From positions 72,172,074 through 72,236,073 of the forward strand of contig NC_057717.1 of the NCBI RefSeq assembly GCF_004010195.1: DNA of 64,000 nt. The letters run 5' to 3'. A program made the translations under genes and the position numbers. Of this stretch, positions 14,411-44,679 are shown piece by piece. Below the pieces are notes generated by a model. That model searched no databases. It was not told the origin of the DNA and was given only the letters and a program-made list of their open reading frames with translations. This DNA is from Chiloscyllium plagiosum. Taxonomy: Eukaryota. Numbering within the stretch: position 1 is the first letter of the stretch; every line of letters starts with the position of its first letter.

Positions 14411-14426
14411 CTGAAAAGGCAAGCAC

Positions 14427-20800: not shown

Positions 20801-21244
20801 TACGGAACACATACAGATAGATTGAAAATTATTCCTTGTCATTTATACAAATAAAGCTTTGAAATCAAAGTTGCCATATTCCCAAGCCTGCTCTCTCATT
20901 ACAGAGACAGAGTGATCACGCGAGTTGAAAGATGATGCTTTAACTTGAGAGTCACTGTGCCTCCGGCAAGGCACAAAATTGAGAATGCGGGAACTTCATG
21001 GAGCCAGTACAAGTAAATTACACACGCTGTTGCTGTCATTCTTCATCGCAATCTAGTCGCCCAGCCAAATAAGCTAGCCCACCAATTGCCAGTAAACAGT
21101 ACGAAATGGAGCATGCTCTGTCTCCCATTTGTGTCCTTAATATCTCGACCCAGAAAACCATCTCATACATACACCTTCATAGCATTGTTACGGATCTGAT
21201 TTGCTCAATCTCCGGGCAGATTGAAGTCGCATGCAATAACTATA

Positions 21245-21740
21245 AAGCCACAAGCTAAAGGAGCAGAATTCGGCTATTCTACCCATCGAGATCTCTGCAA
21301 CATAGGTCTTGGTTGATGTGTTTCCTAACCTCATTCTTCTGCTTTCTGCCATCTTCTGCAACTGTTGTTCCCGTCATCAATCAGCGATATATCAGTGTCT
21401 GTCTTGAATATTCTCAATAACATTTAGCGCCACATCCCTCTCTGGCAAGGAGTTCCAAAGAATCACTACCCTCTGGCTAAAGCATCTCACTTCAAAATGC
21501 TCATCCTTTTTTCTATGAGGCTGGGCCTCGGATCATAATCTCTCTTACCCGTTGAAAAACCTTTCCACAGCCACTTTAGTAACGACTCTCTGTATTGTAT
21601 AAGTTTCAATCAAAGTTTTAAACTCCATCAAATACAGACCCCGAGTATTCAACTGCTCCGTTTTATGGCAAGCCCTTTTCCTCCCAAGATCATTCTTATA
21701 AACCTTCTTTGTACCCCCTCCAGTGCCAGCACATTCCTTG
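21245..21740 (-). mobile_element. CR1/L2 LINE 3' fragment
   Basis: ggagcagaattcggctattc tail; gagttccaaagaatcactaccctctgg. Confidence 0.65.
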
Positions 21741-22260
21741 GAATATTGTGCACAGTTCTGGTTTCCTTGTTATGAGAAGGATTTCATAAATTGGAGAGGG
21801 TTCCGAAAGTATTTACCAGTATGATGTCATGAAAGGAGGTCTTCTGTTGTGAAAATAGGCTGCTATATTTTTTCATTGGAGCAGATGACTTCAAGATTTG
21901 ACCTGATTAAGATTTGTCAAATCACAAGGAGCATAAATAAGATTAATATCAAATGTGAGGGAGATCGTAACTAGGGGTACAATTTTGAGGGACAAGAAGG
22001 AAGATTTGTAAAGGACATGAGGGGCAGCTTTGTTTTGGCACTCTGGTCAGTGTGTGCAGTGAACCGCTAGAGGAAGTGATGGATGCAGGTACAGTTAAAT
22101 TGTTTCAAATTCTCTTGGATAAGTACCTGATTAGGAATGTACTTGAGGTATATGGGCTAAATGCAGGCAGGCTGATCTATTTTAATTTGACAATATATTT
22201 TGCATGGTATATATGGAGTGAATGGTCTGTTAAAGTGCTGTTTGACTCTGACTCTACCCT
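21741..22260 (+). mobile_element. CR1 LINE 3' fragment
   Basis: EYCAQFWFPCYEKD-like coding remnant followed by a 3' tail with tgactc repeats. Confidence 0.7.
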
Positions 22261-22366
22261 TACATATCAGGCCTAACTTGCAATGTTCCAAAGGCGGTCT
22301 GACCACAGCCAGAAAAACGCTCAACTGGATATATCCGCTCTTGTATTCGAGGCCCCTTGATATAAA

Positions 22367-22866
22367 NNNNNNNNNNNNNNNNNNNNNNNNNNNNNNNNNN
22401 NNNNNNNNNNNNNNNNNNNNNNNNNNNNNNNNNNNNNNNNNNNNNNNNNNNNNNNNNNNNNNNNNNNNNNNNNNNNNNNNNNNNNNNNNNNNNNNNNNNN
22501 NNNNNNNNNNNNNNNNNNNNNNNNNNNNNNNNNNNNNNNNNNNNNNNNNNNNNNNNNNNNNNNNNNNNNNNNNNNNNNNNNNNNNNNNNNNNNNNNNNNN
22601 NNNNNNNNNNNNNNNNNNNNNNNNNNNNNNNNNNNNNNNNNNNNNNNNNNNNNNNNNNNNNNNNNNNNNNNNNNNNNNNNNNNNNNNNNNNNNNNNNNNN
22701 NNNNNNNNNNNNNNNNNNNNNNNNNNNNNNNNNNNNNNNNNNNNNNNNNNNNNNNNNNNNNNNNNNNNNNNNNNNNNNNNNNNNNNNNNNNNNNNNNNNN
22801 NNNNNNNNNNNNNNNNNNNNNNNNNNNNNNNNNNNNNNNNNNNNNNNNNNNNNNNNNNNNNNNNNN
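22367..22866. other. assembly gap (N run)
   Basis: Run of N. Confidence 1.
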
Positions 22867-23049
22867 AAGCAAAATAAATGTTAGTGTGAGAGCTGCTGGA
22901 TTGCGCTGCTGGATCTGATCATTACCACAATCACATGTTCCCCACATGTCGATAGTTGAAATGACCATCAAACGAGACGATGAGAAATCAGTGAAGGGAC
23001 AAAAAAAATCAGTGAAATTACTGGAAGAGTGCCACAGACTCCCGAACAC

Positions 23050-23470
23050 CGTAGGGGTATAGAGGAGCTAATACGCAGTCAATCTCGCAATAATGATAAA
23101 ATAATAGGGCCGTAATAGAAGGGATTTTTCACAACTCCAATTTAATTTGTCACTGTAATGCAAGATGATTTTTCAAGTGATTTCAAGAGCACTGTTTTGG
23201 TCAGTCATGGCAAGACCAACAAGAGGGGCACAATTGTGGAGCTAGGTTTAAGAAATTAAGCTGGGCAGTAGGAGGAATGGCAGTGGGATCGCATCGTTGT
23301 GTCAGAGATCATAACCCAGTCAGCTTTGCCATCGTACTGAAAACAACCTAATGTGTATGTTGATTTTACCAATGCTTTTGATGGTGTCCCACATGGCAAA
23401 CTGTTTAACAGGTAGAAGTTCGTGGCATTAATGGAACGTGACAAATGAGGTAACATTACTAGCTTAGTAG
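23050..23470 (+). mobile_element. internally deleted CR1 endonuclease/RT fragment
   Basis: gattttaccaatgcttttgatggtgtcccacatggcaaactg encodes DFTNAFDGVPHGKL, an RT motif. Confidence 0.55.
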
Positions 23471-24787
23471 CAGGAAATAAAGAGGATTTGGTGACAGGTA
23501 ATCTCTGGTCCATGTGAATAAAGGCTCTAACATGAGGATCGATCTCACGAACACGCGATTGAAATGGATCACGAGTATTAAGGTCCCGATGGTGGGAGGG
23601 GACACGTTTACCCAGAAACGCTGACAGCATTAGCACAGTCACAGCAGTGTCAATATTAGAGTTAGATTATGGAATGCCTCAGTAAAATGGGAGGAGCGAC
23701 GTAAAGGAGGATTATTGACCGTGGGAGGGAGAGAAATTTCCGAGAATGGGTGGGTTGGAATTCAGAAGTGTGATATTCCGCAAAAGTAACCAATTCTGCG
23801 GAATACCACATAGTCCCAGTGAACAGGCCCAAAATCAGAGAAAGTGAATGGCGCAGCAGTGAAGATCAAACTGGAAATGTGGATGGGGATGAGCTTGCTT
23901 TGGTGGTATAAAGGTGCATGAAATGCTGGGACTGGGAGCTCCAACCTCACTTGAGTACCTCCTATAACATGGAGCAGGGACAGTGGGACATCAGACTGCG
24001 AGCTCCAATTCACATGGATCATATTCTGTTGGCATGAAGCTTTGTGCATTGCGAGATCAGGCTGGAAGTTCCAATCTCTCCTGGAGCAGCTTTTATTGAT
24101 AACGAGCAGGAAGCAATGAGACATCAAGCTGAGGAAAATGTTATTTTGTTATTTTATTCTGAACTAAAGTAGTTTTTAGCAGGACCCAGTTTTATAGTTT
24201 GAGTCAGTATCTGTCCCAGGGAAATCTCTCAATAGTAAGGGAAAATGCTGCAAAGGTTACGACGTAGAGGAGAATCTATGGAGAGAGAAACTGAGGTAAT
24301 GTTTTCTCTTTCTGACTTTTATCATATGACTGACTGCAATACGGTTCAATTGCAGCAAGCGATTTTCAGCTCGTGTCATGTTATTAAATTTCCTGAAAGC
24401 CCACCCAAGTCATTAAAGTAATCTAAACGTCCAAACATTAATGGAAAATATGATGTTGCGATATGCTCGAGTTTATCTTGATTTATGGAGGAAAAACAGG
24501 AAACTGATGTTGAAATGTACAAGATCAGCGGTTATCCCATTCAATGGCTGAACAGACAGAGGGTGAATTGAAGCTTCGTGAGGACAAATATGTTTTCTTT
24601 GTGAAACTCGCTGATTCACAAACTGAGGACTGTCGAACTGAAGTAGTGATGATGATTTTCTTTTCTGCTTGTTAAAGTTTTGAACATGACTGCTACTTTT
24701 CATGTCCATGGTAACATCAAACAGTTTGATTCCCTCCCACGTTTGTTAAGTCTGCGTTACTTTGCAGATAGCGGCAGAAAATGACAA

Positions 24788-24859
24788 TATTGTAAGTCAA
24801 ATTCTAGCTGATCGTTCTGCTGCCGCAACACAAAGCACTAACCACTGCACGATATCGGC
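24788..24859 (-). pseudogene. tRNA-His(GTG)-derived relic
   Basis: Reverse complement gccgatatcgtgcagtggttagtgctttgtgttgcggcagcag resembles GCCGTGATCGTATAGTGGTTAGTACTCTGCGTTGTGGCCGCAG. Confidence 0.75.
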
Positions 24860-25293
24860 ACCACATGGAATAGCATGATGCGAAAAGCAGTAAAGATAGT
24901 GCGAGAGGATATCTTAGGAACAAAACCACGTGAACAACTGGAATATTTGACAGACAGTGACTGAGGCAGGCGAACTCAGGTTGGACTGAAACTTTAACTT
25001 CGGTATCTCCAGAGTTGGTGGAGATTTCATCAGTGAGTTTGATGAAGGCTAAGATTGATGTACTTCTCCAGAAGATGAGAGCATCAGGGGATAGTGCAGG
25101 GTATTGGTGGAATGTATTTCCACAAAAAATGTAGTTTACCATTGGTTACCTCACCAATTTCCTCAGACAAGGAAGTGACCACTGCTGTGGAATATCATAT
25201 AGTCCCAGTTCCCCGGCCTGGAATCAGAGAAACTCGTGGTGCAGCAGCGAAGAACAAACAGGAAATGCGGATGTGGATGAGCCAGTGGATGTG

Positions 25294-25389
25294 GCTTCAG
25301 TGATGAAATTAGTAATTGCGAAGTATTTCTCTGAAAGTGTAATGTTAAATGAAATGCTGTGGCTGGGAGCTCCAACTGCACCTGCAGCA
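25294..25389 (+). pseudogene. intron-containing tRNA-Ile(TAT)-derived relic
   Basis: gcttcagtgatgaaattagtaattgcgaagtattt...atgctgtggctgggagctccaactgcacctgcagca; 96 nt, consistent with a retained intron. Confidence 0.55.
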
Positions 25390-25929
25390 ACTTCCATTGA
25401 CAGGAATCAGGGATCATTGGGACATCAAGCTGGTAGATCCAATCTCACCAGGAGCAGCTTCTATTGACGCCTACACAGAGAGAAACGGAGGTCATGTTTT
25501 TGCCCTCTGACTTTTCTCATATGCCTAACTCTGCTCTGAGTTAAAATGCAGGAAGAGATTTTTTTGCTCATTTCATATTATACAATTTCTTGCAGCCTCG
25601 CACAGGTCGTTAAGTATTCTCGACCTTCGAAAGTTAGCGGGAATACGATGATATGATGAGGCACTAGATTGCCACGGGTGATGGAGCAAAAGCGGGAAAG
25701 TGAATTTGAACGTCATCAGATGAGTGGAAATCACATTGAATGGCTGACTAGACACAGGGTGAATGGAAGCTTCATGAAGACGACTGTGTTTTCGTTACAA
25801 AACATCCCGCTGCACAACGAGTGGATCATTGGAATGAAGCAGTAACAGTGATTATCTTTCCTGGTTGTTCAAATTGTGAACATGAGTACGATTGCTCATG
25901 TCTGCAGCATGCCAACCTCAAGCACCCGT

Positions 25930-26002
25930 GAGCACAGTGTCACAATCAATAATGCGCTTGATTACCGTCCAGAGATCGTAGTTTAGTTTTCGACTTGATT
26001 CA
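25930..26002 (+). pseudogene. tRNA-Arg(ACG)-derived relic
   Basis: cagtgtcacaatcaataatgcgcttgattaccgtccagagatc; same position in the unit as the copies at 28504 and 31456. Confidence 0.55.
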
Positions 26003-26572
26003 AGAGCTAGGCTGGCAGGCTTCAAATCCCCATGCAAGCTAATCTTCCGCACTGTTCCAAAACCGAACTGAGGTTTGAATTCTTAACCTGCAGGAGCGAA
26101 GGTCATTCAGGAAATGTCCCCAAGAACATTAGAGTCAATGTCCCAATTTCATCACAAGAGAGGATGCTGAAAGCACACGTTGCTCAAGGGTACCTTTCAA
26201 TTTTCCAAACCCACCACAGAACCATACCCACAAGAGGATTACTTGGAAAACAGCGACTGAGATGTGGGAACTCAGATCTAATTGAATGTTTAACTTCAAT
26301 GTCCCTCGAGACTGTGGAGATTACAACACTGCATTTGTAGAAGACTAAGATTGATAGATTTTGTTTACAAGACTTCAAAAAGTCATGGGATGTTGCAGGG
26401 TTTTGTTGAAATGAATTTCTCAATAATAATGTCGGATAACATCGGTTACTTCACCAAATTCCTCACTCAATCACGGCTGTGGAATGTCACATAATCACAC
26501 TTCCAAAGGGTTAGAGTCAGAGAAATTGAGTGCCGTATTGGAAATGAGGATAACAATGAGCGCGAAGATGTG

Positions 26573-26659
26573 GCTGCAGTGATGAAATCTATGAGTGCAA
26601 TGTCCTTCTCTAATAATAGAAAAGTGCATGAAATGTGAGCTGCATCTTCACCTGGAGCA
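26573..26659 (+). pseudogene. intron-containing tRNA-Ile(TAT)-derived relic
   Basis: gctgcagtgatgaaatc...tgtgagctgcatcttcacctggagca; the end matches CTCACCTGGAGCA. Confidence 0.55.
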
Positions 26660-26930
26660 GCTTCTATTGACATGGAGCAGGGAACATTGGCACATTAGAC
26701 TAGGGGAAAAGGTACTCAGCTATTAAAATCTTAAGTGAAGTAGTTTTGTGGCAGGACACATGTTTGCAGATTGAGGGAGTATCTGTCAGAGGGAACAATC
26801 TCAATAACAAAGAAAACTTCTGCAAAGATTCAGCTCTTGCAGGAGCAACTGTGCAGAGAGAAGCAGAAGTAATGTTTGCCCTATCTGACCGTTACTCTCT
26901 GGCAGACTCTACGCTGGGTTACATTGGAGA

Positions 26931-28281
26931 ACAGTCCTCCAACCACAGATATGTATATGCATCAGTCTTTCTAACAAAATTGACTTTGTGGTAGTCCACA
27001 CATAACTGTTGAACCTTATCTGGCTTTGGCACCATGATACTGCGTGAACTTTAATTAATTGAAACTCACGGCGATTGTGCCATCCTCGAGCATACTTATG
27101 AACTTATACCAACTTTAGAGGATTATGCTCACAAGGATGTTACGAAATCAGAACAGCATCTCCTAGATTTGCATCATCTATAATTCGGTTAGTAATTCAC
27201 AGTTTATTTTTGCATATCTCCACATGCAAGAGTAATAACTCTTTTAGGTCATTTTGATTTTTTTCTGGAAGATAATTGAATAGTTATACCAATTGTTGAC
27301 AACTGTTGCATTGTCCAATTTTATTTCAGAAACGTCCAATGCAGAATCCCCTGCCATTGGTTCTTCCCACTGAGTTGTCGTCAGTAACACATTCTCCTCT
27401 TGCGTTATTTTCTCTGCCCAAATACCTTTGCAGCATATTCACATGACACACTTTGTCAGCTTTCTTCATGCCTCGAGTCCCTATCAAGTAGATAATCTCA
27501 CTCAATTTCCTCTCAATTTGATAAAGTCTGCTAAACCTTGCTTTAAAGGTTCAACTATTACTGAACTTTAGAGAAATACATTATTCCCAGTGGCAAAATT
27601 GTGAATTTTTGATGTCTCAGTAACCTCCTGCTTCACCATATGCTGCGATAATTTTAAATGCTGTCTCGCCAACTTCCAAGCATTATTTCATCGAATTCAA
27701 AAATTTTACACATCGTCCAATTGCGTAGTCTTTGAAATCTGATTATTAATTTCTCCTTAATCAATTTTATTGGCCCTCCTACTATATGCCCAAAATTCGT
27801 TTTATATGGACATAATTTGGTGAATTCGTTTGGTACATCTCTGATCGCAAACAGCACAAATGCAACTCCCTTATGGAAATCATCTGGCTACTCTTTACCA
27901 TAAAACCTCAACATAGTTTTTAATATTTGACGTCACCTTTCTGGTGTTCCCTGCGATTCTGAATGGTACACAGTAGAATATGAATTGTTTTAGACTCAAG
28001 CTATCCATATACTCCTTGAAAAGTTTGGATGTGAAGTTTGACCCTTGATGTAATTGTATATCTGATGGTCGTCTTAATCTAGTTACAAAAAAAGTGTAAT
28101 TATTCCACAATCCTTTTTGGTGCAATATTGCAAAATTGAACAACTTTTGGAAATGTCGTCTCATTAATGTTAATAAGTGCTTATTCCCACCTTTATTGGA
28201 AGTAGGGAACCTACACAATGAATGAAGACACTTAAGAAAGATTCCTCGAACGCTGGAAAAGGTATTAAAGGTACAGGCTTT
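26931..28281 (-). repeat. ~99% identical 1351-bp copy of Gypsy integrase-RT segment 33696-35046
   Basis: Direct repeat at offset 6765 with about a dozen substitutions; no LTR and no TSD. Confidence 0.95.
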
Positions 28282-28503
28282 CAACAGTGATCCCATTGAA
28301 TGGCTGAGCAGACAGAGGGTGAGTGGAAGCTTCATGAGGCGATATGTGCTTTCTTTGGAAAACTCGCCACTTCGCAAATTTTGGAACAGTGGACTGAAGC
28401 AGTAAAAGTGATTATCTTTTATTGATTTTTCAACTTGTGAACATGTAATCTATTGCTCAAGTCAGTGCTAACATCACAACTCTGAAGAGTAAGCTCCTGC
28501 CTG

Positions 28504-28570
28504 GGGTCAGTGGCGCAATCGATAACACGCCTGACTACAGCGATTATATGTTCGAATCTTACCTGGCTCA
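28504..28570 (+). pseudogene. tRNA-Arg(ACG)-derived relic with A/B boxes largely kept
   Basis: gggtcagtggcgcaatcgataacacgcctgactacagc...gttcgaatcttacctggctca versus GGGCCAGTGGCGCAATGGATAACGCGTCTGACTACGG...GTTCGACTCCTGGCTGGCTCG; short deletion in the anticodon 3' stem. Confidence 0.85.
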
Positions 28571-29007
28571 CAGGCTGTGCTGAGGTTACCATGCTCTTCA
28601 GTCGTTCTGAGGCTGAACTGCGGTTTCAAATCCTGAACTGCAGGAGTAAGATCTCTTTTATTAAATGGGAAGCTGAAGTAGTCGCACACGCTGCTCTTCG
28701 CACCTTTCAACTTTCCAAACCCACCTCCGGTTCACTGCGGCAACTGGGCCTTGCAAGGAAAGGATAGAGAACCAAGTATCAGCTCTGACAATCTTGAGAA
28801 ACTGTTTGGGAAGCGGAATCAGAGAAGGATAGAGTGTGAACTTTCTGACTGAGCAGAGATTGCTGAGGCACAATCCCCTTCTTTAAGAGGCCGTGACACT
28901 GACTCTCATGTCTCGAGGTCATTAATTGATCTGAGGTATGAAAAGCACTCCCATTGCAGGTGCTCTGCATTTGCTGATGTCGCTCTCAGGATCAAAACAA
29001 ACCCCGA

Positions 29008-29080
29008 GTCCCGGACTGAGAATCAAAACCAGGTCACAGCGAAGAAAGTGAAAAAAATGGAACCGTTCGCCCACCAGAAA
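29008..29080 (-). pseudogene. tRNA-Glu-derived relic
   Basis: Reverse complement tttctggtgggcgaacggtt...cgctgtgacctggttttgattctcagtccgggac. Confidence 0.6.
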
Positions 29081-30134
29081 CAGCTATACGAATCACACTC
29101 ATGCGTGGAGTTACAGCCCTCAAGCTCGTTGTACGTGTTCTTCTCAAAAGAAATCGCTTGACGATCTTTATTCGTTTTCCATCACTTGGCGTTGTATGCA
29201 TGAGCATCTCAAAATCACATCCGAGTACTTCTTAAGGTTATTTGTGTACAATTCTGTGAACACTTGTGGACAGTGAACTCTAGATTCAACGATCTGCTGC
29301 CTGATGAACTTTTTCTGTGTATCTTCCCAACCCTTTCTCCAACTTACTTTAAATCTACGCCAACTGTTGATCGGTCAAGACGTACCATTTCTTTCAGTCT
29401 GCATCGTCCACGTCCCTCATTATTTAGTGCATATCAAACATGTCACCTCATATTCTCCACTGTTTTAAAAAAGAAAAACCCCAGCCAAACCAATCTCTCC
29501 TCATAACGTAAACTCTTCAACGAGAAGATCGCTTGGTAAATCTCTTCTACACGTTTTCCAATGCTATCACATGCTTGCTATAATGTGAATTGCAGAACAG
29601 CATGCAATATTCTCGGGGGAGCAGAATGAACAAATGAGATAAATGAATGGAGAAAGGCACAGAAACTTCCCTTTTCCAATAAAGCATCTTTTGCTCAATA
29701 CGACGCTCTGTATTTTTTCTGAGGCCATGCTCCAAAATATCTGTTGTCCGTGTCAGTATGAGCTGCTACACGAGGATTAATGTCAGAACTACTGCATCTA
29801 AATGGAATGAATTGCTTGAAAGTCCCGATCGTGGGATTGGGCCACTTTCAACCAAAACAGCAGCACAGACGGAACAGTGTCCGTGGAGTGTTATATTGTG
29901 CAATACCTCAGTGAAATGGGAGGATGGACTTGTAGGAGAGTTAGTGCTTGTGGGAAGGAGGTAAATCTGCGATAACGGATGGTTATGATTTGAAACACAA
30001 AAATGTGAGAGAGCAGGTGCTTGAAGAAGTACATTTATCACCACCAAAAGTATTTTCATGTAAAAAAAAGATTGTTTTGTTTCCCGCATTTGCTAAGCAC
30101 ATATTACATGGATTAAAATGGGAAGAATGCCGAC

Positions 30135-30206
30135 TGCTGTCACTGCGATTCGAGCAGAACGTGCTGTGGCCACAATGCCAAGGATGAACCATTTCATGAT
30201 CCCGGC
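30135..30206 (-). pseudogene. tRNA-His(GTG)-derived relic
   Basis: 72 nt; reverse complement gccgggatcatgaaatggtt...ttgtggccacagca...ctcgaatcgcagtgacagca; GTG anticodon kept. Confidence 0.75.
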
Positions 30207-30628
30207 GCTGCATGGGAAAGCACGAACGAAAAAGCAATACGGATCATGGTAGAGGTTATATCAGGAACAGAACCACATGCACAAAGGAACACTGGCCAAA
30301 CAGTTACTTAGATGTGGGAACTCAGGTTAAACTTTAATGTCCCGAGAAACTGTAGAGATTCCAATACTGAGTTTGTAGAAGACTAAGTTTACTCGATTTC
30401 AACAAAACTTCGAAGAGTCATGGGAGACAGTGGGGTATTGTTGAAATGTATTTGTCAATAACAACGTAGTTTAACATCGGTTACTTCAACAATTTACTCA
30501 CTCATTCACGTAATCATTGCTGTGGAATATCATATAATTCCAATTACCAGGAGTGGAGTCAGATAAATTGAATCGCACCGCCGTGAAAACAAAGTGGAAA
30601 TTGAGATGGCGATGAGCGCGAGGGTATG

Positions 30629-30724
30629 GCTGCAGTCATGCAGTTGGTGAACAGTGTGTCGTTCTCTGATGGTGCAGAGGCGCGTGAAATATCGAGGCTA
30701 AAATCTCAAACCTCACCTAGAGCA
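30629..30724 (+). pseudogene. intron-containing tRNA-Ile(TAT)-derived relic
   Basis: gctgcagtcatgcagttggt...cgaggct...cctcacctagagca; 96 nt. Confidence 0.55.
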
Positions 30725-31455
30725 GATTCTCTTGCCGTGCATGAAGAAGCATTGGGACATCAGGCTGGGATCTCCAATCTCACCTGGATCAGTTCTATGC
30801 ACGTGTAGCAGAGAGCCTTGGGGAACCTAGCTGTGAGCTCCATCTTCTCCTGGAAGAGCTTCTATTGGCATGGAGCAGGGAATATTGGGACATCGGCTGG
30901 GGAAAGGATAGTCAGCTGTTTTAATCTTAAGTGAAGTAGATTTCAGCAGGATACATGTTTGTGCATGGAGAGAATATTTCATATACAAAGAAGTATTCTG
31001 CAAATATTCAACTCGAGGAGGAGCATCTGTGCACAGAGAAGCAGAGGATATGTTTATGTTATCTGACCAACCTGATATGGCTGACTCTGCACTGGATTAA
31101 TTTGCATACTCACACATGTCGTTAAAGTAATCGAGATTTCCGGCAAAATTCTGGGATATGCAATGTGGTGATCAGGCTCAATTTCACGTCAGTTATAGTG
31201 GAGAAGCAAGAATTTGGATTTAAAATGCATCAGATCAGCACTGATCCCATTGAATGTCTGAGGTGCAAAGGGTGAATGGAAGATACATGAGGGTATATGT
31301 GATTTCTTTGGGAAATTCGCTGCTTCGCAAGGTGATGAGCATTGGACTGAGGCAGTGACAATGATAATCTTTATTGGTTTTTCAACGTGGGAAAATGACT
31401 GCTATTACTCATGTCCGTTTTAACAGCACAGCTCTGAAAGCTGTAACCGCGCATA

Positions 31456-31528
31456 GGGACAGTAGTGCATTGGGTAACGCGCCTGACCACGGGGTAGGAG
31501 ATTGCCGGATTGGCTCATACCTGGCTCG
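31456..31528 (+). pseudogene. tRNA-Arg(ACG)-derived relic
   Basis: 73 nt; gggacagtagtgcattgggtaacgcgcctgaccacgg...ctggctcg. ACG anticodon kept, B box lost. Confidence 0.8.
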
Positions 31529-31981
31529 AGAGAAGCACGCACTTCTACACACCTTTGCACATACAAACTTTCTGGTTGTTCTGAAGCCGAAATAAGGTTT
31601 GAGATCCTTCTCTGAAGGAACGAGTATGACTTCGTGAAATATCTCCGAGAACATGAGAGTCACTGTTCCACTGTCAGCACAGGAGAGGAAGCTGAAATAT
31701 TCGCATACGTTATTCATGGTTACATTTCCATTTCACAAACCCACTTATCCAATCACAGTGACTCGCCGGAATGGTAAGGAAAAAAATCTAAATCGCTCAT
31801 TCACAGCTTTGATAATCTTTGGAAACTTTTGGAACAGTGGAATTAGAGGAGAATGAAGGGTTAACTGTCCAACTGAGCAGGGACTGTCGAGGAACATTCT
31901 CCTTCTTTCAGAGGCTGGCAAAATGAGTCTAATATTGATGGGGACATTAATTGATCCGAGGCATTGGAAGTGCTCCCGTCA

Positions 31982-32165
31982 GGATGTAGGTTTGCTCGCT
32001 GAGCTGTAGGTTTGATATCCAGAGGTTTCATCACCTGGCTCGGTAACATCATCAGTGGCGACCTCCAAGAGAAGCGAAGCTGTTGTCTCCTGCTTCCTGG
32101 ATATAAAACCTACAGCTCAGCGAGCAAACATACACCCTAAACGTGACCTGAGCTACAAACCTTGC
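31982..32165 (-). mobile_element. Penelope-derived insert with inverted ends and hammerhead-like core
   Basis: Inverted repeat 31982-32022 / 32097-32137; minus strand CTGATGA-tgttacc-gagcca-ggtgat-GAAAC; TSD agt(g/a)ctcccgtca (31969-31981 / 32166-32178). Confidence 0.8.
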
Positions 32166-32241
32166 AGTACTCCCGTCACAGATGCTTCGCTGTTGCACAG
32201 CTGTTGTCCCTGTCAGGAACGTAAAGAGAAAAAAATCCTTA

Positions 32242-32317
32242 TTCCCCTGCTGGGTATCAAACCCAGACCACGGCAGAAAAAAAACAGCTTATTCCTAACC
32301 ACTGGAACCAGAGATGA
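32242..32317 (-). pseudogene. tRNA-Glu-derived relic with downstream T-run
   Basis: Reverse complement ...tggttccagtggttaggaat...gccgtggtctgggtttgatacccagcaggggaa, then a T7 run resembling a Pol III terminator. Confidence 0.7.
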
Positions 32318-32677
32318 TTAGCGCATAGTACTGCACTCAAGACTAACTTCACCCCATTTTCCATCACTTGGCTTTCTCTGTTTTAGCGTCACAAATTCAG
32401 AATGAAATATTTCTGAAGGTTATGTGGGTGTCTACCTCTGTTTTCCGTACAGAGAGTGAGTTACAGAGTCTCCCACTCGCTGACTGATAAAGTTTTCCTG
32501 TATAACTATTCAATTCTTTCTGCCTCTTGTCTAAAATCTACCAACACTGGTGATCGATCTGGAGAAAACGTTTTCTTCAATCTGTAATTCCATGGTTCTC
32601 GTTAATTTGTACATCTGAATCAAATCTATGACTCTATGTCTCCTCACAATCAACTTTGCTCTGAGAAAAACAATTCC

Positions 32678-35600
32678 CGTTTTGGCGAGGCCAGACCATT
32701 CAAATCATTCTTAGGTCGGCAGTCCAGAGCGGAACTTCGCAATTTGTTTCGTTACATGTACAGTGAAATTTATTCGGAATAGGTTAGCTAGGTTGACTTC
32801 CAGGTTTTCAAACAGACAAAAAATTATTCACGTAATTACGGAATTAGAAACAACGACCAAAATATAGAATGCAGACAGACCTCAGCTGTCCGAACTCGAC
32901 TTAATTATTCTTTTTCAAAAATACTCAGCAGTCCCGATAATTAAACGCCATAAACACAGAGTAAAAATGAAAGGGGGGTTTCCAGGTCGAAATTAGAGAG
33001 GCAAATGAAGAGAGACATCCACATCACTGGTATCGATGGGCACATTGAAAGTCTTCGTGAAATTTGATATAGCTGATACTTTGGCAATGGTTCGCACAGC
33101 ATTTAGGCTGTCAATTACGTTCTGAAATTCTTGTGTTCACTGAAACTTCTTGCTTGTTTTAAAAATTCGTGGCGTGGAGCAGTCCCACTGCACACATTCA
33201 GCACAATCTTTCCGTAAAAGCCACTCAATCCGGGGAACTATAGCAATTATCTTTTCGTCAACGGTGTGAAATAGTCCCCTGTAACTTTCGTTTTCGCGTC
33301 CCCTGAGGCTATCTGTCCGTGTTCAATAACATGACCCAGGAACGTGACTTGGGCTTTGGCAAATTCACTCTCAGCTAGGTTTAGCAGACAGTATGACTTC
33401 CGCATTCGATCAAACAAGTCTGATAAATGATTCAAATGTTCAATCCATGAGTGACTGAAATTCACCACGCACAATATACCCCATGCAGTTGAGTATTCTG
33501 GCAATCACCTTGTTAATTAGTTTCTGAAATGTGGCTGAAGTATTTTTCGTATAAATGGCATTAATTAAACTGCGGAAGTCCAGTTGTCGTAACAAAAGCT
33601 GAATTTGCCTTTAATATTTCTGACAAAGTTCACTGCCAGTAACGTTTGAGCAAGCCCGACTTAGAAATGTAAGTTGATCGTCCCATCTTTTCCACACAGT
33701 CCTCCAACCACAGAAATGTATATGCATCAGTCTTTCTAACAAAATTGACTTTGTGGTAGTCCACACATAACTGTTGAACCTTATCTGGCTTTGGAACCAT
33801 GATACTGCGTGAACTTTAATTAATTGAAACTCACTGCGATTGTGCCATCCTCGAGCATACTTATGAACTTATACCAACTTTAGAGGATTATGCTCACAAC
33901 GATGTTACGAAATCAGAACAGCATCTCCTAGATTTGCATCATCTTTAATTCGGTTAGTAATTCACAGTTTATTTTTGCATATCTCCGCATGCAAGAGTAA
34001 TAACTCTTTTAGGTCATTTTGATTTTCTTCTGGAAGATAATTGAATAGTTATACCAATTGTTGACAACTGTTGCATTGTCCAATTTTATTTCAGAAACGT
34101 CCAATGCAGAATCCCCTGCCATTGGTTCTTCCCACTGTGTTGTCGTCAGTAACACATTCTCCTCTTGCGTTATTTTCTCTGCCCAAATACCTTTGCAGCA
34201 TATTCACATGACACACTTTGTCAGCTTTCTTCATGCCTCGAGTCCCTATCAAGTAGATAATCTCACTCAATTTCCTCTCAATTTGATAAAGTCTGCTAAA
34301 CCTTGCTTTAAAGGTTCAACTATTACTGAACGTTAGACAAATACATTATTCCCAGTGGCAAAATTGTGAATTTTTGATTTCTCAGTAACTTCCTGCTTCA
34401 CCATATGCTGCGATAATTTTAAATGCTGTCTCGCCAACTTCCAAGCATTATTTCATCGAATTCAAAAATTTTACACATCGTCCAATTGCGTGGTCTTTGA
34501 AATCTGATTATTAATTTCTCCTTAATCAATTTTATTGGCCCTCCTACTATATGCCCAAAATTCGTTTTATATGGACATAATTTGGTGAATTCGTTTGGTA
34601 CATCTCTGATCGCAAACAGCACAAATGCAACTCCCTTATGGAAATCATCTGGCTACTCTTTACCATAAAACCTCAACATAGTTTTTAATATTTGACGTCA
34701 CCTTTCTGGTGTTCCCTGCGATTCTGAATGGTACACAGTAGAATATGAATTGTTTTAGACTCAAGCTATCCATATACTCCTTGAAAAGTTTGGATGTGAA
34801 GTTTGACCCTTGATGTAATTGTATATCTGATGGTCGTCTTAATCTAGTTACAAAAAAAGTGTAATTATTCCACAATCCTTTTTGGTGCAATATTGCAAAA
34901 TTGAACAACTTTTGGAAATGTCGTCTCATTAATGTTAATAAGTGCTTATTCCCACCTTTATTGGAAGTAGGGAACCTACACAATGAATGAAGACACTTAA
35001 GAAAGATTCCTCGAACGCTGGAAAAGGTATTAAAGGTACAGGCTTTATTATTGCGCATTGTTGTTCCGATTAGTTAAAATGTACGACACGTCTGGCAAAA
35101 TTAAACTACATTCTTGTGCAGTCCAGGCCAGTAAAAATGTCTTTGCATTTTAGTCTATGTTTTCCTCACGACTAAATGCCCTCCAATTTGAAGCACATGC
35201 GGCACTCTGAGCACCACTTTTCCATACCCTACTGGAAAAATAATTCCTGTCCATTTCAAAACTGATTGAATATGTGATGGTCTCCATTTCCTCATTAATA
35301 AGTAATTTATTAAGTAATATCACACAGGGATGCATTCACTCTCCTTCCATGTATATGTCTTCTGATAGAACAGCTTTAACTCTTCATCTTCTGCTGTAAC
35401 TCAGTCGCATTTCAGAGATAAAGATACTTGCATTTTTAACATTTGGCCCTGCTGTGTCCCACTCAACTAATCAAAATATTTTGTAAACATATTTCAGCTT
35501 CCTGATTTGTGCCTTTTGATTTCTCTTGCCTCAGGTAGTGACCCTGTGATCTCGTTAAGACACAATCTGGGAACGTTCATTGATAAACGGCCTGCATTGC

Positions 35601-37526
35601 TTCACTTGCCTGTATCTCCACTGGCTTTTCAACCAGAGTAGGCAGCACGCTTTCCGGTGAATAAGCTATATCATTTGCAAGCACAAATTGTATTCCTGGA
35701 GATGAGAGTTTGTCCAGAACTCACACCACAAAGCCTCCGCTCTTTTCTGCACACTCTAGTCTAACTTTACATAATTAAGCAATTTTTCGTCTCACCATGA
35801 ATTCCCATAACACAGCACCTTTTCTGAGAATAGTACTTCAGGAGTGCATATTTCCCCAGACATCAGCACCACAGACTGTGAGGATGCTGTGTGCATAAAG
35901 ATTGTTACCTCTCTACCTGCTACTACTGGCCAATGTAAATAAACTTTACCTTTGCAGGTATATTTTAAAAGCAGATCTCGATCTCCCTCCTTATCAACCT
36001 CGGATCAGCTTGTGTTCTCTGATGCAGCATTCTAGCTTCCACTGTGTGTTCTGTTACCATGCCAGCAAAACATCCAGGCTTGTTTTGTTTTCCTCCATAT
36101 GGCTTTTCAGTGCTTTCTCTCGTACTACAACACTGTGATTTCATTTGGACTACTTTATTGCAAGGAAAACCCCAGATCCCGTTCCCTTCCAGGGTTTCCG
36201 ATTTACCCTGTGATAAGTTATCCTTATGATCTTCACTGAGATTTTACTTTCCCTTTCCAGATGAGGATTTCTGTTTGCCACAATTTCTATCTCTCTCAGA
36301 GACTTAAAATGCTTCTGGAAACCAATCCGTGTTTTATGGACCAGTTCATTATAATCAGCCATTTAACATTATGCTCTTCCAAACGAAGCTTACCTTCAGA
36401 CTTTATCTTCAGCACTTTAACGTGAATTCCTTTAATAATTGTCAATTTTGAAGTTCAAACTCTGTCTCCCTTTCTCTGTGCTCTACTGCTCTCGCTTCTT
36501 CCTTCTCTCTGCTTCGAATCGTAACTCAAACTGATTCAAATCTGGGGTCCTTTCCTTATCTCTCGCGTCTGACTCAAGCTGATTCATTTTCAAATAGTTT
36601 TTATCCATCTGTACAGATTCTCATGGATTTTCCAGCTGAGTTAAATGTTGAGCTACTGCGGGAATGATCTCTCCTTTAGTGACATAAAGAGGCAAATACA
36701 ACCCCAGCTTCTCTGCTAATTCCAGAAGTCTGGCCTGATCCTTTTTTTTTTGTAAAACTACTAACTTTACCTCGTCCACAGCCAGACAACTCTTGGTAAC
36801 TAAATGAGACTTTGCTTTCCCAAGCATTGTCTTCTGCCAGCCAAATCAACACCCGAAAGGGAGACGCTAGCACCCAGCACTTGCTCTTTTAATCTATCAA
36901 CTACCTCCCAATTTGTTATGGACGAGGCTAAACCACTCAACACACTATGAAGCAGGCAACCCACACCAGAACATTATAATTTGTTTCATTAGGTGTACCC
37001 TGAAAATTGTTCGAGCAACCAAGTTAGGTTGACCAAATATTATTCACAAAATGACGGATTGAAAAACAAAGAACAGAATATAGAATACCCACAGAACCTA
37101 GTCTATCCAAACTCGGCTTATTAAGCTGTTCTGAAAACACACAACTCTCTCAAAAAACAAGCACGTTAAACACAGTAAAAACGAAACAGAGGCTTACAGG
37201 TCGAAATTAGAAGGGCAGTAGGATTGATTTTTTTAGTTAGCGCACCACTGCTGCACTAACTAAAAACCGGAATTCAGCTTTCCATAATGACTATAGTTCT
37301 ATCATTATGCAATTTATTTCTAAAGCATAAAATTTCAGCCTAAAGCCTCACCTGTTGACGAAAAAACAAAAGGCCTCACAGCGAAAACTTTCATCTCTGT
37401 ACCACTTCATACGATTCGGAGCCTGAACTGATTTACAACGCCTGTGATAAAAAGAAATCAAGATACAGTATCCTTGAGAAAAAGTAGAGCTCCGTTTTTT
37501 TTAAATAAAGAGAACACCCTGTGACA
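32678..37526 (-). mobile_element. Gypsy LTR retrotransposon, Gmr1-like domain order (gag-PR-IN-RT-RH), degenerate
   Basis: Diverged LTRs at 32678-~33005 (partial) and 36914-37526 (TG...CA). gag ~36050-36830 (LLELAEKLGL); integrase ~34300-35150 (QGSNFTSKLFKEYMDSL, LFAIRDVPNE); RT ~33200-33850 (HLNHLSDLFDR...AQVTFLGHVI); RNase H start ~33040, truncated. Confidence 0.85.
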
Positions 37527-37759
37527 GCCAAGTCCGTCCAACCTATCTTCACAACTGAAACTCTTCGAACAGAAAATATCCTGATAAATCTGTTCTGCTA
37601 CGCTTCCAGTGCTATCACATCCCTGCTATAGTAGTAATTGCAGAATGACACACTATACTCCAGCTATAGCCGATTGAGCAAATGATATTAACGACGTGGA
37701 AAGCCACAGAAAGTGGACTTTTCCAATAAAGTGCCTTTTACACAATACTGCATCGTGGA

Positions 37760-38110
37760 GAAAGTGAGGATTGCAGATGATGGAAATCAGAGTCGACAGT
37801 GTGTTGATGGAAAAGCGAGGAGCGGGAGAATTGGCGTTTTTGGCATAAGCCCTTAATCAGGAATGAGGTTTGTGGCCATGAGGGCTGAGAGATAAATGGG
37901 CGGTTTGTGAGTTTTGGGCATGATAGCTGAGTATGGGGGCTGTGCTCAGTTGGAGTCATGCAACTAGAATAATGTGAGGGGAGGGCGAATGTGATAACTG
38001 GTAATCCCATGTGGTATCAAGGTCCCAAGCGGAAGATGAGGCCTTCTTCTTTCAGCCGTCAGGTGGTTAGTGTATAGCAATGGAGCAGTTGCAGGAACTC
38101 CATGCCCTTC
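37760..38110 (-). mobile_element. Penelope-like 3' fragment
   Basis: Homologous to 63360-63790 (LGTLIPHG; tggcataagccc...cagg core). Confidence 0.65.
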
Positions 38111-38402
38111 GCAGATTTGGTGCGGGCGAATAGTGTGCATTACAGATGAGCTTCCAACTGCATGTCCAAATATCATTATGAACCTGGTACGTCTCAGGAA
38201 CAGTTTCTGATTCTACCCCACCTGACGAGAAATTGAGGACTGCAGATGCTGGACATCAGAGCCAGGAAGTGTAGCTCTAGAAAAGCTCAGTGGTTAGGCA
38301 ACATCTGTGGAGCAGGAGTGTCAACGTTTCGAGATTCCTGATGAAGGTCTTATGTTCAATATATCGACTTCCTCATCCATGGATGCTGCATTATCAGGCG
38401 TA

Positions 38403-38800
38403 CATTTCCAGAATCACACTTTTAACTCGACACCACCTCAGCTCATCTGCTTTAGAAAAATAAATGAAGCACCTGTCACCACTCAGTTGATTCTTCTGTC
38501 GCATGCGAGACAAACCGCAACATTCTATTCCCCATGAATCTCAGATCATTCAGATCTCGAAAGAAAAGATTACTGCAGACGCTGAAAATCTGAAAGAAAA
38601 GCATTTCCAGAATCACACTTTTAAATCGACACCACCTCAGCTCATCTGCTTTAGAAAATTAAGTGAAGTACCTGTCACTACTCAGTTGATTCTTCTGTCG
38701 CATGCTAGACAAACTGCAACATTCTGTTCCCCATAAATCTCAGATCACTCAGATCTCTAAAGAAAAGATTACTGCAGACGCTGAAAATCTGAAAAAAAAA
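38403..38800 (+). repeat. 199-bp tandem duplication (2 copies)
   Basis: catttccagaatcacactttta...gctgaaaatctgaaa at 38403 and 38602; roughly 90-95% identical. Confidence 0.95.
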
Positions 38801-39329
38801 GCAATAATTGATGGAGAATTCACGAATCTCTCAGTTCAACTGAATGGTCGAATATTAAACTTGGTGAAGGAAAAGAAAAATCTGCAATTTTATAACGGCT
38901 ACATTCTGTTTCTCAAAATAAAAATGAGTTTCATGAAGTGGACTGTTTTGATCAGGCAATGCACGCTCACCTTGTCATGTGCTGCTGCGAATGCGTGAAT
39001 ATATATTGGCATCGCCACTGCTGAACAGATGAAAAATATTATTTTGCCTTCTGAATCAATTGATGCTCCTGCAGAAAAGTCAATGTGACTCATATCCCAG
39101 CACAGTCAGATCGGTGTGTATTTCAGAGTCCTGCAACATCACATTTAATTTAAAAAATCTTTACTAATTGTTGCTTATAAATATCGCGTTCTCGATTTTA
39201 TACTGCATTAGACAATGATTTACTCACTAACTTACTCAACTGTACATCACTCTATTTTAGTACCCCTAACGTTCCATTCACGATTTACCGACCAAACCAG
39301 TTTCTCGAAGAAAAGTTTTATTTTTAAAA

Positions 39330-40780
39330 CCGAAGATTGAGCTGGACTAATGCCTGTCGGAAATCAAACATCAATCTGTCACTCTCGATACCTTGTTTAG
39401 TGTATCTCAGGGCCTGTCACCTTAAACCCGTGCCCTCTAATTTTGAACTCCACCATCCTGGGCAAAGGATTTAGGCCAGTTGCCTTTCCATGACCCTCGT
39501 GACTTTATAAACGGTGAGAACGTTACGCACTGCCTGTAACATTCCAGCGAAAAAGGTCCTGCCTACCCAGTCTCCACGTATATCTTAAGCCCTCAGGTCC
39601 TAGCAACATCCATGCAAATCATTTGTGCACAGGTTCAATTTTCACAACATCCTTCCTGCAGAAGCTGACTATAAGTGCAAACAGGATTCTAAATGTGATC
39701 TCACCAGCTCCACAGCCACAACATGGCATTTCAACTCGGATAATCGACTTCATGACTAATGACAGAAAGCGTTCCAAGTACTTTCTTCACCAACTTGTCT
39801 AGTTGTGACACCACTTTATCTACTTTTATAATCTTTGCCTGGACTGATAAAGTTTTGGTTGTCTTCTTCACTACTATGTTCTGCTGCCTTCACGGATATG
39901 TGGCCCAACATGCAAGGCCTCTCTGTTCCTCTATTAAGTACTTCGTTGACGAATTACTTCCAGTGTGCACCACATCATATTTTACATGGTTAATTTCAAA
40001 ACCCCATATCTGAATTTGACATTTGACAAATCCATCTCTAACCTCCTCAAACCTACGACCTTCTTCCTTACTGTGAACCACTTTGCCAATATTCGTATCG
40101 TCGGCAGTTCTGCTTATCCTTTCCCCCTAATTTGTTCTATGTACACCATTAAATACCAGCTTCCAGTCGCACTTAGAGCCTTCTATCACCATCCTTTATC
40201 TCCTACCACCACCAAACTACATTTGGATCCAACTTGCCAGGGGACCTTATAACCCTTTTAACTTTTACCCTGTTACCAGTCTCCAGTGTGGTGTCTTGTT
40301 AAGGGATTTGTTGAAATCCACACAAACAACATCAACTTCACTATCCTCGTTAAAACAGCTGATCACTTGCCAAAAAATGTATTTAATCCGGTGTGTTAGG
40401 CATAACATTCTCTAACAATACCGTGATGACTCTCCCTGATGAAACATTGCCTGGAGAAGTGGCAAATAACTCTCTCCTTCAGGGAGTGTTCCAAAAGGTT
40501 GCCTTCAACTGATGTGAGACTCATTCCTGTGTGATTCTTTGGTTTATCTCTCCCAATCATGCTGACAAGTGGAACTGCGTTAGTAATACTGCAGTCCTGT
40601 ATCAAATCAAAGAGGTCAGTAAAACATTGGTCAGAACACCTGTAATTTCGTACCTTGGCTCAGAGGCGAACATAAGATACCAGTCCGTCCTGAATTGGGG
40701 ATATGCCCATTTCAAGCCAGTCAGAACCTCGAGCACTTTCTCAGTAAATTAGTCAAACTGCTTAAGAACCTCTCCATCCC
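39330..40780 (-). mobile_element. degenerate CR1 LINE fragments (3' end and RT)
   Basis: ORF 40396-40605 gives SLTSVEGNLLEHSLKERVICH...IRESHHG. Confidence 0.75.
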
Positions 40781-41269
40781 TCTTCCTGCATTCTGCACCT
40801 TTATCTTACTACAAGTGGACTGTTCACCTACTGAACGAGTAAAATGATTCACTCAATTATCGCATTTACTGACATAACTGTACTGTCACACTGGAGGGAG
40901 GTCATACAGATAGTTAAACTGGTAAACGCTGCATTCAACCTTTGCGGTTATAAAACCTTTTGCTTTGATAGCCAGAGGCAGATTGTTACAGTGAGAAATG
41001 ATTTGAGATTTCTCTAAGTGAAAAACAGTCACTTGATTCCACCTCCTGCAGAGACTCCTATCTGTTCACATCTGACATGAGGGACCCGAACAGAACTGTG
41101 GCACAAATCCCAAGCAAATGATTGCTATATTCATTGACCTACGAAGTTGATGCCAATGGCTCATATTGTAATGATTTCATCAACAGGAGAACATTCCAAG
41201 ATTAACACAGCTCTGTCTGATGTGCAGGGGATCATTACACAAGCACAGTATCAGGGTTCCTCTGTGGCA

Positions 41270-41960
41270 AGAGCAAACGATGCTGGAAAGAGAAATCGGA
41301 GTTAACATTGTCGTTCCAGTTACCCTTTCCTTAGCACTGATGTTTTCCAGGTAATTTTTGGTCCATATTCATAAGCTATGTGGGGGCGCAGTAATTCGGA
41401 GTAAACGAGAGGTGGGGAGAGAGCGGAAAGAGAGAGACTAACAGTTGGACATGGGAATTGATAATGATCTGTTTGGAGGATCAATAAATGTTCATGGAGA
41501 CAGTGAATCACTAACCATAGTTAGTGTGTAAAATCTGGCTATGCTATAACTAGGCCTGGTAGGCGGCCAGGACCTTCGAGATTTCAGGCCTCTAAAATTA
41601 TTGAAATTGATGTGGAGTCCGGAGGATTGCAGGGTCCTCAAGCAGAAAATGGTCTGTTCCTTTTTCAACATGCGCTGACCTATGATGGAACACTGCAGGA
41701 AGCCTGTGACAGAGGCGTTGGCTCGGGAACATGGCTCTGTGCTGAAGAAGTAGTCAACTGGAAGCTCAGGGGCATTTTTGAGGATAGAACGTGGATGTTC
41801 TGAAAAACGGTCATCCAGTCCAGACTTAGTTTCTCAAGATAGTGGAGACCAAAATGCGAGCAGTGAATGTAATAGACTGGATTGTACGAAGTGTAAGGAA
41901 AGTGTTGCTTCATTTGAAAGGTGTATTTGAGAACTTGCATAAGAAGGAAGCAATATAGAA
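41270..41960 (-). mobile_element. degenerate Penelope-like GIY-YIG fragment
   Basis: Minus strand gives NPVYYIHCSHFGLHYLE and RTLQPSGLHI-type motifs. Confidence 0.7.
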
Positions 41961-42019
41961 ATGGACAAGTGAGGAGAAGCAAGAAGCAAAAGCGAAGTAT
42001 GACTTAGGAGTTCCTGTTA

Positions 42020-43830: not shown

Positions 43831-43835
43831 TTAAA

Positions 43836-44285: not shown

Positions 44286-44289
44286 GTTA

Positions 44290-44660: not shown

Positions 44661-44679
44661 GCTCTGTATTTTGTAAATG

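What the first reader, a model, noticed from the sequence alone, without database searches (positions are those of the whole stretch)
23500..37740. Fossil tRNA macrosatellite with a His(-)/Ile-TAT(+)/Arg-ACG(+)/Glu(-) unit
Seen: the order is His 24788, Ile 25294, Arg 25930; Ile 26573, Arg 28504, Glu 29008; His 30135, Ile 30629, Arg 31456, Glu 32242. Spacers are homologous, and a partial unit lies at 23.7-24.7 kb. All genes are broken, and copies are strongly diverged from each other. Established: tandem multi-tRNA units exist in vertebrates (the Xenopus 3.18-kb cluster, the human 1q23 macrosatellite). Inference: a chondrichthyan unit of a composition I do not recognise, which stopped homogenising and then decayed and was invaded by TEs. 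This is the strongest unannotated system in the window.
Basis: partly seen in the sequence, partly recalled or inferred. Interest (0 to 1): 0.7.

Follow-up and report, generated by a model that had tools for sequence, protein, structure and literature searches.

The report
Fossil tRNA array inside mass-copied block
A worn-out tandem set of four kinds of transfer-RNA genes lies inside a long DNA block found at many dozens of places in this animal genome; one arginine gene was likely still working when the main burst of copying happened and has since decayed as fast as the DNA around it, so such copies likely inflate tRNA gene counts.

Summary
Observation confirmed. No tRNA finder calls anything in the window, but all 10 named sites match an intact own-genome gene of the named isotype best (His-, Ile-TAT+, Arg-ACG+, Glu-), and the sub-units are 62-74% alike. 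The reading needs revising: this is not a local macrosatellite that died in place. The array is cargo in a block of at least 43 kb, with old TE pieces and a broken zinc-finger exon, listed at 82 places (estimate 75-100), mostly on two large scaffolds and unplaced contigs. Sub-units group by position, not locus, so they diverged before the block spread. In the main family the consensus Arg-ACG of the last unit is intact (69/73, compensatory C27-G43) while seven other relics are 28% off; its copies then decayed neutrally (5.0%, like the flanks). A sister family did the same with His. The window's own small family spread with every gene dead. No intact four-gene unit was found. This is tRNA birth-and-death plus segmental duplication, a new variant of known kinds; the scan noted similar dead clusters on other DNA before.

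The parts
5102..48243 (.). Minimum extent of the duplicated block shared with copies elsewhere (no single fetched copy spans all of it; 5102 is where the fetched stretch ended)
   Evidence: colinear at 72-86% with copies on C8, C7, C16, C39 and unplaced contigs; 86-94% with local C8:72.4-72.8 Mb copies
11460..11554 (-). Extra Ile-TAT relic upstream of the array
   Evidence: 67% over 95 nt, E 2e-6
14605..15876 (.). Further unit remnant: LINE-tail piece, post-Arg spacer and a truncated Glu relic (15822-15876, - strand)
   Evidence: 62-65% to 28667-29717; Glu hit E 0.003
16626..16673 (+). Partial Glu relic (weak)
   Evidence: 73% over 48 nt, E 0.001; also seen in other block copies
23500..24719 (+). 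Unit 1, partial: Ile 3' half (23913-23953) to the Arg 5' flank; its Arg and Glu are deleted here but kept in the main family
24788..24859 (-). His-GTG pseudogene, unit 2
   Evidence: 49/72 to intact gene, z 13.8
25294..25389 (+). Intron-type Ile-TAT pseudogene, unit 2
   Evidence: 61/96, z 11.9
25931..26002 (+). Arg-ACG pseudogene, unit 2
   Evidence: 47/73, z 8.2
26573..26659 (+). Ile-TAT pseudogene, unit 2'
   Evidence: 59/93, z 8.4
26931..28281 (.). Young 1351-bp copy of 33696-35046 replacing about 175 bp of spacer
   Evidence: 99.0%; absent from sister copies L032, L033; left junction bridged with 0 differences by a contig of run X1, uninserted form in X12
28504..28570 (+). Arg-ACG pseudogene, unit 2' (6-nt deletion)
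   Evidence: 56/73, z 15.1
29008..29080 (-). Glu pseudogene (TTC fits slightly better than CTC), unit 2'
   Evidence: 46/72, z 9.2
29175..29701 (.). LINE-like tail piece that is part of the repeat unit
   Evidence: recurs at 32357-32622 + 37499-37748 and 14605-15094 and in unit 1 of the main family; similar to 58793-58989, next to RVT_1 hits
30135..30206 (-). His-GTG pseudogene, unit 3
   Evidence: 51/72, z 15.1
30629..30724 (+). Ile-TAT pseudogene, unit 3
   Evidence: 61/96, z 9.7
31456..31528 (+). Arg-ACG pseudogene, unit 3: the position that was still intact in the main family's ancestor
   Evidence: window 56/73, local-family consensus 62/73; main-family consensus 69/73; Rfam tRNA 30-61 bits in other copies
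32242..32314 (-). Glu pseudogene, unit 3 (deleted in most other copies)
   Evidence: 51/72, z 11.9; junction 31876-32448 in other copies
32679..37217 (-). Old, broken LTR retroelement inserted in the tail of unit 3 and copied with the block
   Evidence: terminal repeats 67.6% alike; integrase remnants rve, Integrase_H2C2, p58_C in 3 of 25 frames tested
37499..37748 (.). Rest of the unit 3 tail
   Evidence: 71% to 29463-29701
47938..48261 (+). Broken C2H2 zinc-finger exon carried by the block
   Evidence: zf-H2C2_2 E 2e-9; stops and frame changes in the two copies translated

Best explanation
This is a dead tandem array of a His/Ile-TAT/Arg-ACG/Glu tRNA unit that sits inside a block of at least 43 kb present at 82 or more places in the genome, and it was likely spread as a passenger by DNA-level segmental duplication while one Arg-ACG gene was probably still functional. 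Steps: (1) a 2.5-3-kb unit was multiplied head to tail (shown; unequal crossing-over inferred); (2) homogenisation stopped, units drifted about 0.5 changes per site apart, genes died and deletions trimmed them (shown); (3) the last unit's Arg-ACG stayed under selection in one lineage (inferred from its intact consensus); (4) the block, with its TE pieces and a dead zinc-finger exon, was copied in tandem, inverted and to distant sites (shown; recombination- or replication-based copying inferred, no junction mechanism shown); (5) the copies have decayed neutrally since (shown for the sampled copies).
For: Copies are colinear through spacers, LINE pieces, the LTR element and the ZNF exon. In a 35-row tree sub-units group by position with 95-100 support for units 1, 2 and 3, not by locus; window to main family 0.31-0.32, between units 0.48-0.50. 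Main-family copies are 85-95% alike, 77-82% to the window's family. 82 distinct places in four capped lists, 23 on large scaffolds; estimates 75 (range 39-213), 92, 99. Unit 3 Arg consensus 69/73 against 27.8% difference in seven other relics, p 1.3e-6, with C27-G43 where ordinary genes have T27-A43 and a T5 run about 37 nt downstream. In 17 copies picked by a different part of the block it differs at 49/986 non-CpG sites (5.0%), flanks 3.7-7.4% per copy. Ends vary from copy to copy, with head-to-head and head-to-tail joins. Contigs of three coded organisms cover the main-family stretch, two bridge its diagnostic junction.
Against: No junction was resolved to a mechanism; several joins fall in N gaps. 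The assembly has proven false duplications: 13 identical pieces of the block pasted into LINE gaps, so unplaced counts carry error, though copies 5-15% apart cannot be such pastes. The tRNA part seems higher-copy than the ZNF side (about 80 against about 50), which a pure passenger model does not predict. The His sister family also spread with one intact gene. Function of the Arg gene is inferred from sequence only.
Confidence: 0.78

Rival explanations
1. The live tRNA gene is the driver: an active Pol III gene acts as the core of the duplicon, seeding breaks or template switches that copy the block, as LCR16a does in primates.
For: Both large families had exactly one intact tRNA gene in the stretch examined when they spread (Arg; His consensus identical to the intact gene, Ile truncated). 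The tRNA part has about 80 copies against about 50 for the ZNF side. One copy ends about 130 bp after the unit 3 Arg (L028).
Against: The window's family (5 copies seen) spread with all genes dead. The His family was found through its intact His, so it is no independent sample. Most ends lie kilobases from the Arg gene. Retention fractions behind the 80-to-50 ratio were picked as maxima.
Confidence: 0.12
2. Selection for tRNA dosage (for instance in oocytes or embryos) amplified the block, and many Arg-ACG copies still work.
For: 20 of 20 motif-bearing copies tested pass Rfam's tRNA cut-off, 13 at 50 bits or more; one copy equals the consensus; the duplicon type gives 22 motif hits against 10 for the ordinary Arg-ACG motif (motifs differ in length).
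Against: Divergence in the gene equals that of the flanks for Arg and His (39/633 against 1479/27132, p 0.43); differences per copy (mean 4.9, variance 6.9) fit random decay.
Confidence: 0.05
3. The block is a large non-autonomous transposon or a retroposed unit that captured the tRNA fossil.
For: Star-like spread of near-equal-aged copies over tens of megabases and several scaffolds.
Against: No fixed ends; 5' flanks and intron-type Ile genes are kept; 142 window frames and 18 long frames of copies give no transposase, helicase or polymerase-B family. The one retroposon-like set of copies proved a likely assembly artefact.
Confidence: 0.04
4. One reading: a single local macrosatellite that decayed in place.
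For: Tandem units and decay are real.
Against: The same four-unit relic with the same breakpoints stands at many other places.
Confidence: 0.01

Closest known systems
Human 1q23.3 tRNA macrosatellite (PMC4041453; abstract and section 12 read)
   Same: Kilobase tandem unit with several tRNA isotypes on both strands and LINE/LTR pieces inside the unit.
   Different: That unit is 7.3 kb, Leu/Gly/Glu/Gly/Asp, 98% identical, 9-43 copies, expressed and CTCF-bound; this one is 2.5-3 kb, His/Ile/Arg/Glu, 62-74% identical, four units, dead.
Xenopus laevis 3.18-kb repeat with 8 tRNA genes (seen only as a citation and one passage in PMC1635290; the paper itself is not held)
   Same: Multi-isotype tandem tRNA unit of similar size.
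   Different: A live oocyte-type cluster; its gene content could not be compared here.
Birth-and-death turnover and anticodon remolding of tRNA genes (PMC4981973; passages)
   Same: Rapid copying followed by pseudogenisation; the shared 5' flank carries ACG here and TCG in intact relatives, an isoacceptor switch.
   Different: Their model treats single-gene duplications and, by its own words, neglects multi-gene tandem duplication; here whole multi-gene blocks were copied.
Primate core duplicons, LCR16a/NPIP (PMC7419210; abstract only)
   Same: Serial interspersed, largely intrachromosomal duplication with variable flanks.
   Different: No intact protein gene or positive selection found; the only intact gene was a tRNA, and it decays neutrally.
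Zebrafish Chr4R tRNA/zinc-finger region (PMC11075544; passages) and notothenioid tRNA-TE unit (PMC12527291; passages)
   Same: tRNA genes, C2H2 zinc-finger genes and TEs expand together in an unstable region.
   Different: Those are described through detectable genes; here almost everything is fossil.
Abundant tRNA loci in sharks (bioRxiv 10.1101/2025.06.08.657570; passages; supplements closed)
   Same: Reports many, clustered tRNA loci in shark genomes at tRNAscan-SE score 50 or more.
   Different: The passages read do not describe units, duplicated blocks or neutral decay; this finding offers a source for part of that excess.

Membership tests
tRNA macrosatellite (1q23.3 type) | Head-to-tail kilobase units with several tRNA genes | tested here: met
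tRNA macrosatellite (1q23.3 type) | Near-identical units (98%) kept by homogenisation | tested here: not met
   62-74%; units group by position
tRNA macrosatellite (1q23.3 type) | Many units per array with intact genes | tested here: not met
   four units plus remnants, 0 genes called
tRNA macrosatellite (1q23.3 type) | Copy-number variation, CTCF and Pol III binding | not testable with these tools
   no population or ChIP data
Segmental duplication (definition recalled: over 1 kb, about 90% identity or more) | Long colinear copies at high identity | tested here: met
   86-94% within the window's family, 85-95% within the main family; 77-82% between them, an older layer
Segmental duplication | DNA-level copying: flanks, introns and nested TEs carried, ends variable | tested here: met
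Core duplicon (LCR16a type) | A core shared by more copies than its flanks | tested here: inconclusive
   about 80 against about 50, two probes only
Core duplicon (LCR16a type) | Transcribed gene with kept reading frame under selection | tested here: not met
   ZNF exon broken; tRNA copies neutral
Core duplicon (LCR16a type) | Independent expansion in several lineages | not testable with these tools
   no other animal assembly is searchable; contigs show presence only
DNA transposon or SINE | Fixed ends, terminal repeats or tails; no shared 5' flank for a SINE | tested here: not met
DNA transposon or SINE | Known repeat-library consensus | not testable with these tools
   no Dfam or Repbase here; Rfam gives only tRNA
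Functional tRNA-Arg(ACG) gene (unit 3, main-family ancestor) | Full cloverleaf, internal boxes, downstream T run | tested here: met
   ARAGORN call on the consensus; 20 of 20 pairs standard in the commonest form, rows chosen by likeness; T5 run
Functional tRNA-Arg(ACG) gene (present copies) | Conserved above flanks | tested here: not met
   5.0% against 3.7-7.4%
Functional tRNA-Arg(ACG) gene (present copies) | Transcribed and processed | not testable with these tools
   no small-RNA run offered

The most novel reading that the evidence does not exclude
A single active tRNA gene works as the core of a duplicon: in this genome several sister block families each burst from a master that kept exactly one live tRNA gene (Arg-ACG here, His-GTG in a sister, others likely), the Pol III gene promoting serial long-range duplication without any selection on the copies, and this process makes much of the excess of tRNA loci reported for sharks.
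Probability: 0.12. Interest if true: 0.75.

Novelty: new variant of a known kind. Interest (0 to 1): 0.4.

Why it matters
It shows, with a datable series of layers, how an old multi-gene tRNA array dies gene by gene and is then multiplied as block cargo. Practical point: dozens of near-intact but neutrally decaying Arg-ACG and His-GTG copies pass tRNA finders, so tRNA counts, tRNA adaptation indices and the reported tRNA excess of sharks may be inflated by passengers. The private C27-G43 pair makes expression and Pol III binding of the family directly testable. If live tRNA genes turn out to seed the duplications, it would be a non-coding counterpart of primate core duplicons.

Tried and rejected
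Lowered ARAGORN thresholds gave 30 mostly spurious calls in the window and hit only 1 of the 10 sites; intron mode was noise. A consensus of all copies did not restore His, Ile or Glu. Live four-gene unit: looked at flanks of 30 top Rfam tRNA loci, 20 of 68 His-motif hits (plus 4 more contigs), 5 of 5 Ile-TAT, 19 of 19 Glu and 10 of 10 ordinary Arg-ACG motif hits; none shows two intact genes of the unit in this order; most flanks were only 1.5 kb, so this is no proof of absence. NLR driver: the NACHT hit at 19530 (E 2e-4, below cut-off) lies on LINE-like DNA and was dropped. GPCR driver: one intact-looking 7tm_1 frame beside one copy and one broken copy among the loci then held; not a regular part of the block. 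New retroposon: 13 hits on 12 scaffolds looked like a young block-LINE chimera, but the block part differs at 11 of 13,509 sites and the LINE tail at 124 of 5,739, 7 of 13 follow an N gap, and 9 of the 12 compared with L328 have the same LINE upstream, as L328 itself does: rejected as a likely gap-filling artefact. Expression: no RNA holder listed; one poly(A) single-cell run gave depth under 4 over the unit; neither is evidence. Summed contig depths were not used as copy numbers. Literature: ten searches found no description of this unit; the library lacks most subscription papers; no supplements were read, and the per-anticodon tables of the shark preprint may bear on the count claim. The human 1q21/1p36 tRNA-U1 duplications are a recalled analogue only (one search found nothing).

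Full report
Observation. ARAGORN and Rfam see no tRNA in the window. Self-comparison shows four homologous sub-units between 23.5 and 32.6 kb at 62-74% identity. I took 19 intact tRNA genes from the same genome and aligned them to the named sites: 10 of 10 match the named isotype best, z 8.2-15.1, at 63-77% identity. The library lacked ten isotypes. The Ile relics keep an intron-length insert but not the anticodon; Glu-TTC beats Glu-CTC by one base. Three more relics lie at 11.5-16.7 kb.

The array is cargo. A 901-bp probe gave 834 first-look candidates, 40 scored. Stretches fetched around them are colinear with the window through spacers, LINE pieces, the LTR element and a broken zinc-finger exon, from 5.1 to 48.2 kb. 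Four capped lists give 82 distinct places, 23 on large scaffolds (C8 14, C7 7, C16 1, C5 1); short contigs may split one copy in two. An exact 17-letter motif has 22 hits, 21 in main-family flanks; 5 of 17 independently picked copies carry it, giving about 75 copies (39-213); recapture estimates are 92 and 99. Copies join head to tail and head to head, with different ends and internal deletions. That the genome is a shark's is inferred from earlier scan notes, not tested.

Order of events. In a tree of 35 rows (hits of at least 400 bp from the window and 26 chosen loci; shorter hits left out) units 1, 2 and 3 each form one supported group across loci; units are about 0.5 apart, the window's family and the main family 0.31, main-family end branches 0.01-0.08. 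So the array stopped homogenising long before the block spread. The shared ancestor had at least four units; the window lost unit 1's Arg and Glu, the main family lost the piece between two Arg genes and unit 3's Glu. A LINE-tail piece recurs in each full unit and was part of the repeat. Contigs of three coded organisms cover the main-family stretch and two of them bridge its diagnostic junction, so the burst likely predates their split. The 1351-bp insert is young and real.

One late survivor. In the main-family consensus seven relics differ from intact genes at 27.8% of sites; unit 3's Arg-ACG differs at 4 of 73 (p 1.3e-6). Two of the four are a compensatory C27-G43 pair (rows of that alignment were chosen by likeness, so its pairing score is biased). 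It was therefore likely working up to the burst. Since then it has decayed like its flanks: 49 of 986 non-CpG sites in 17 copies (five copies of other lineages and three without the gene were set aside). In the window's own family, 5 copies seen, this gene was already dead (62/73, damaged T loop).

Sister families. Near-intact His-GTG genes sit in flanks 58-75% like the unit's, beside a truncated Ile; their consensus equals the intact gene and they too decay neutrally (39/633 against 1479/27132, p 0.43; 16 rows, motif sites excluded). Intact Arg-TCG genes share about 170 bp of 5' flank with the fossil Arg-ACG, and intact Glu, Ser and Asn genes sit next to other spacer modules in other orders. 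No locus examined holds the four-gene unit alive.

Mechanism and rivals. Best reading (0.78): tandem array, gene-by-gene death, then segmental duplication as a passenger in a tRNA/zinc-finger-rich unstable region, then neutral decay; the copying mechanism itself is inferred. The boldest rival (0.12) makes the live tRNA gene the driver: both large families had one intact gene, and the tRNA part has more copies (87 motif hits, less 13 artefacts and 8 from other lineages, at 16/20 retention: about 80) than the zinc-finger side (34 hits at 11/16: about 50); most unplaced hits were not checked. Against it: the window's family spread dead, the His family was ascertained by its gene, and ends lie far from the gene. 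Dosage selection and a transposon are poorly supported.

A trap. Thirteen placed hits looked like a new retroposon but are likely one sequence pasted into LINE gaps by the assembler. The LINE is called CR1-type from recall only.

Comparison. It works like the dead remnant of a 1q23.3- or Xenopus-type tRNA repeat but fails membership (identity, unit number, intact genes). It meets the tests for segmental duplication and not those for a core duplicon with a selected gene. tRNA turnover is known, as is tRNA/zinc-finger/TE co-expansion in fishes and a tRNA excess in sharks. Ten searches found no account of this unit. Two earlier scan notes report dead, duplicated tRNA clusters on other DNA of this genome; none matches this sequence. 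Verdict: real, a new variant of known kinds, interest 0.4; its value is the clean dating of one survivor and the warning for tRNA counts, since 13 of 20 motif-bearing copies score 50 bits or more on Rfam's model (not a tRNAscan-SE score).

Noticed in passing
L313-L315, L317, L318, L321-L325, L327-L329 (G000 C1, C4, C6, C7, C10, C13, C16, C17, C23, C36, C38, C39): An identical 0.9-1.2-kb piece of the block is joined to the 3' end of a young LINE at 13 unrelated places, mostly after N gaps or inside the same LINE: likely gap-filling artefacts that can mimic a new retroposon elsewhere in this assembly.
   Followed up: yes
L070, L076-L078, L091, L095, L098: Intact Arg-TCG genes are built on the Arg-ACG body and share its 5' flank with the fossil; two loci (L079, L098) carry a TTG anticodon on the same body.
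   Followed up: partly
L171-L181, L185, L234-L242, L250-L253: Sister duplicated family with near-intact His-GTG and truncated Ile, some as 1.3-1.5-kb tandem units; 68 exact motif hits in the genome.
   Followed up: partly
L278, L280 (G000 C38400, C55257): A separate tandem Arg-ACG array of about 1.2-kb period whose genes carry a compensatory T5-A68 pair.
   Followed up: no
window 23930-24130, 25361-25467, 30695-30900: The 3' half of the Ile gene plus trailer is repeated as a roughly 65-bp mini-array behind each Ile relic, in varying number between copies.
   Followed up: no
G000:C8:72142074-72172073 (L217-L219), just upstream of the window: More tRNA relics (Ser at 94%, Glu, Ser, Ser, Leu), of the Arg-TCG/Glu/Ser module type.
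   Followed up: no
L137:3598-4551; L223:2492-3398: A 318-codon rhodopsin-family GPCR frame beside one block copy and a broken relative near a local copy.
   Followed up: partly
window 57074-58486: A 707-bp tandem duplication at 99.4% inside a LINE, recent or an assembly effect.
   Followed up: no
window 18200-18750: CpG-rich stretch inside the block that could be the promoter and first exon of the zinc-finger gene, which would put the tRNA array in its intron (seen, untested).
   Followed up: no
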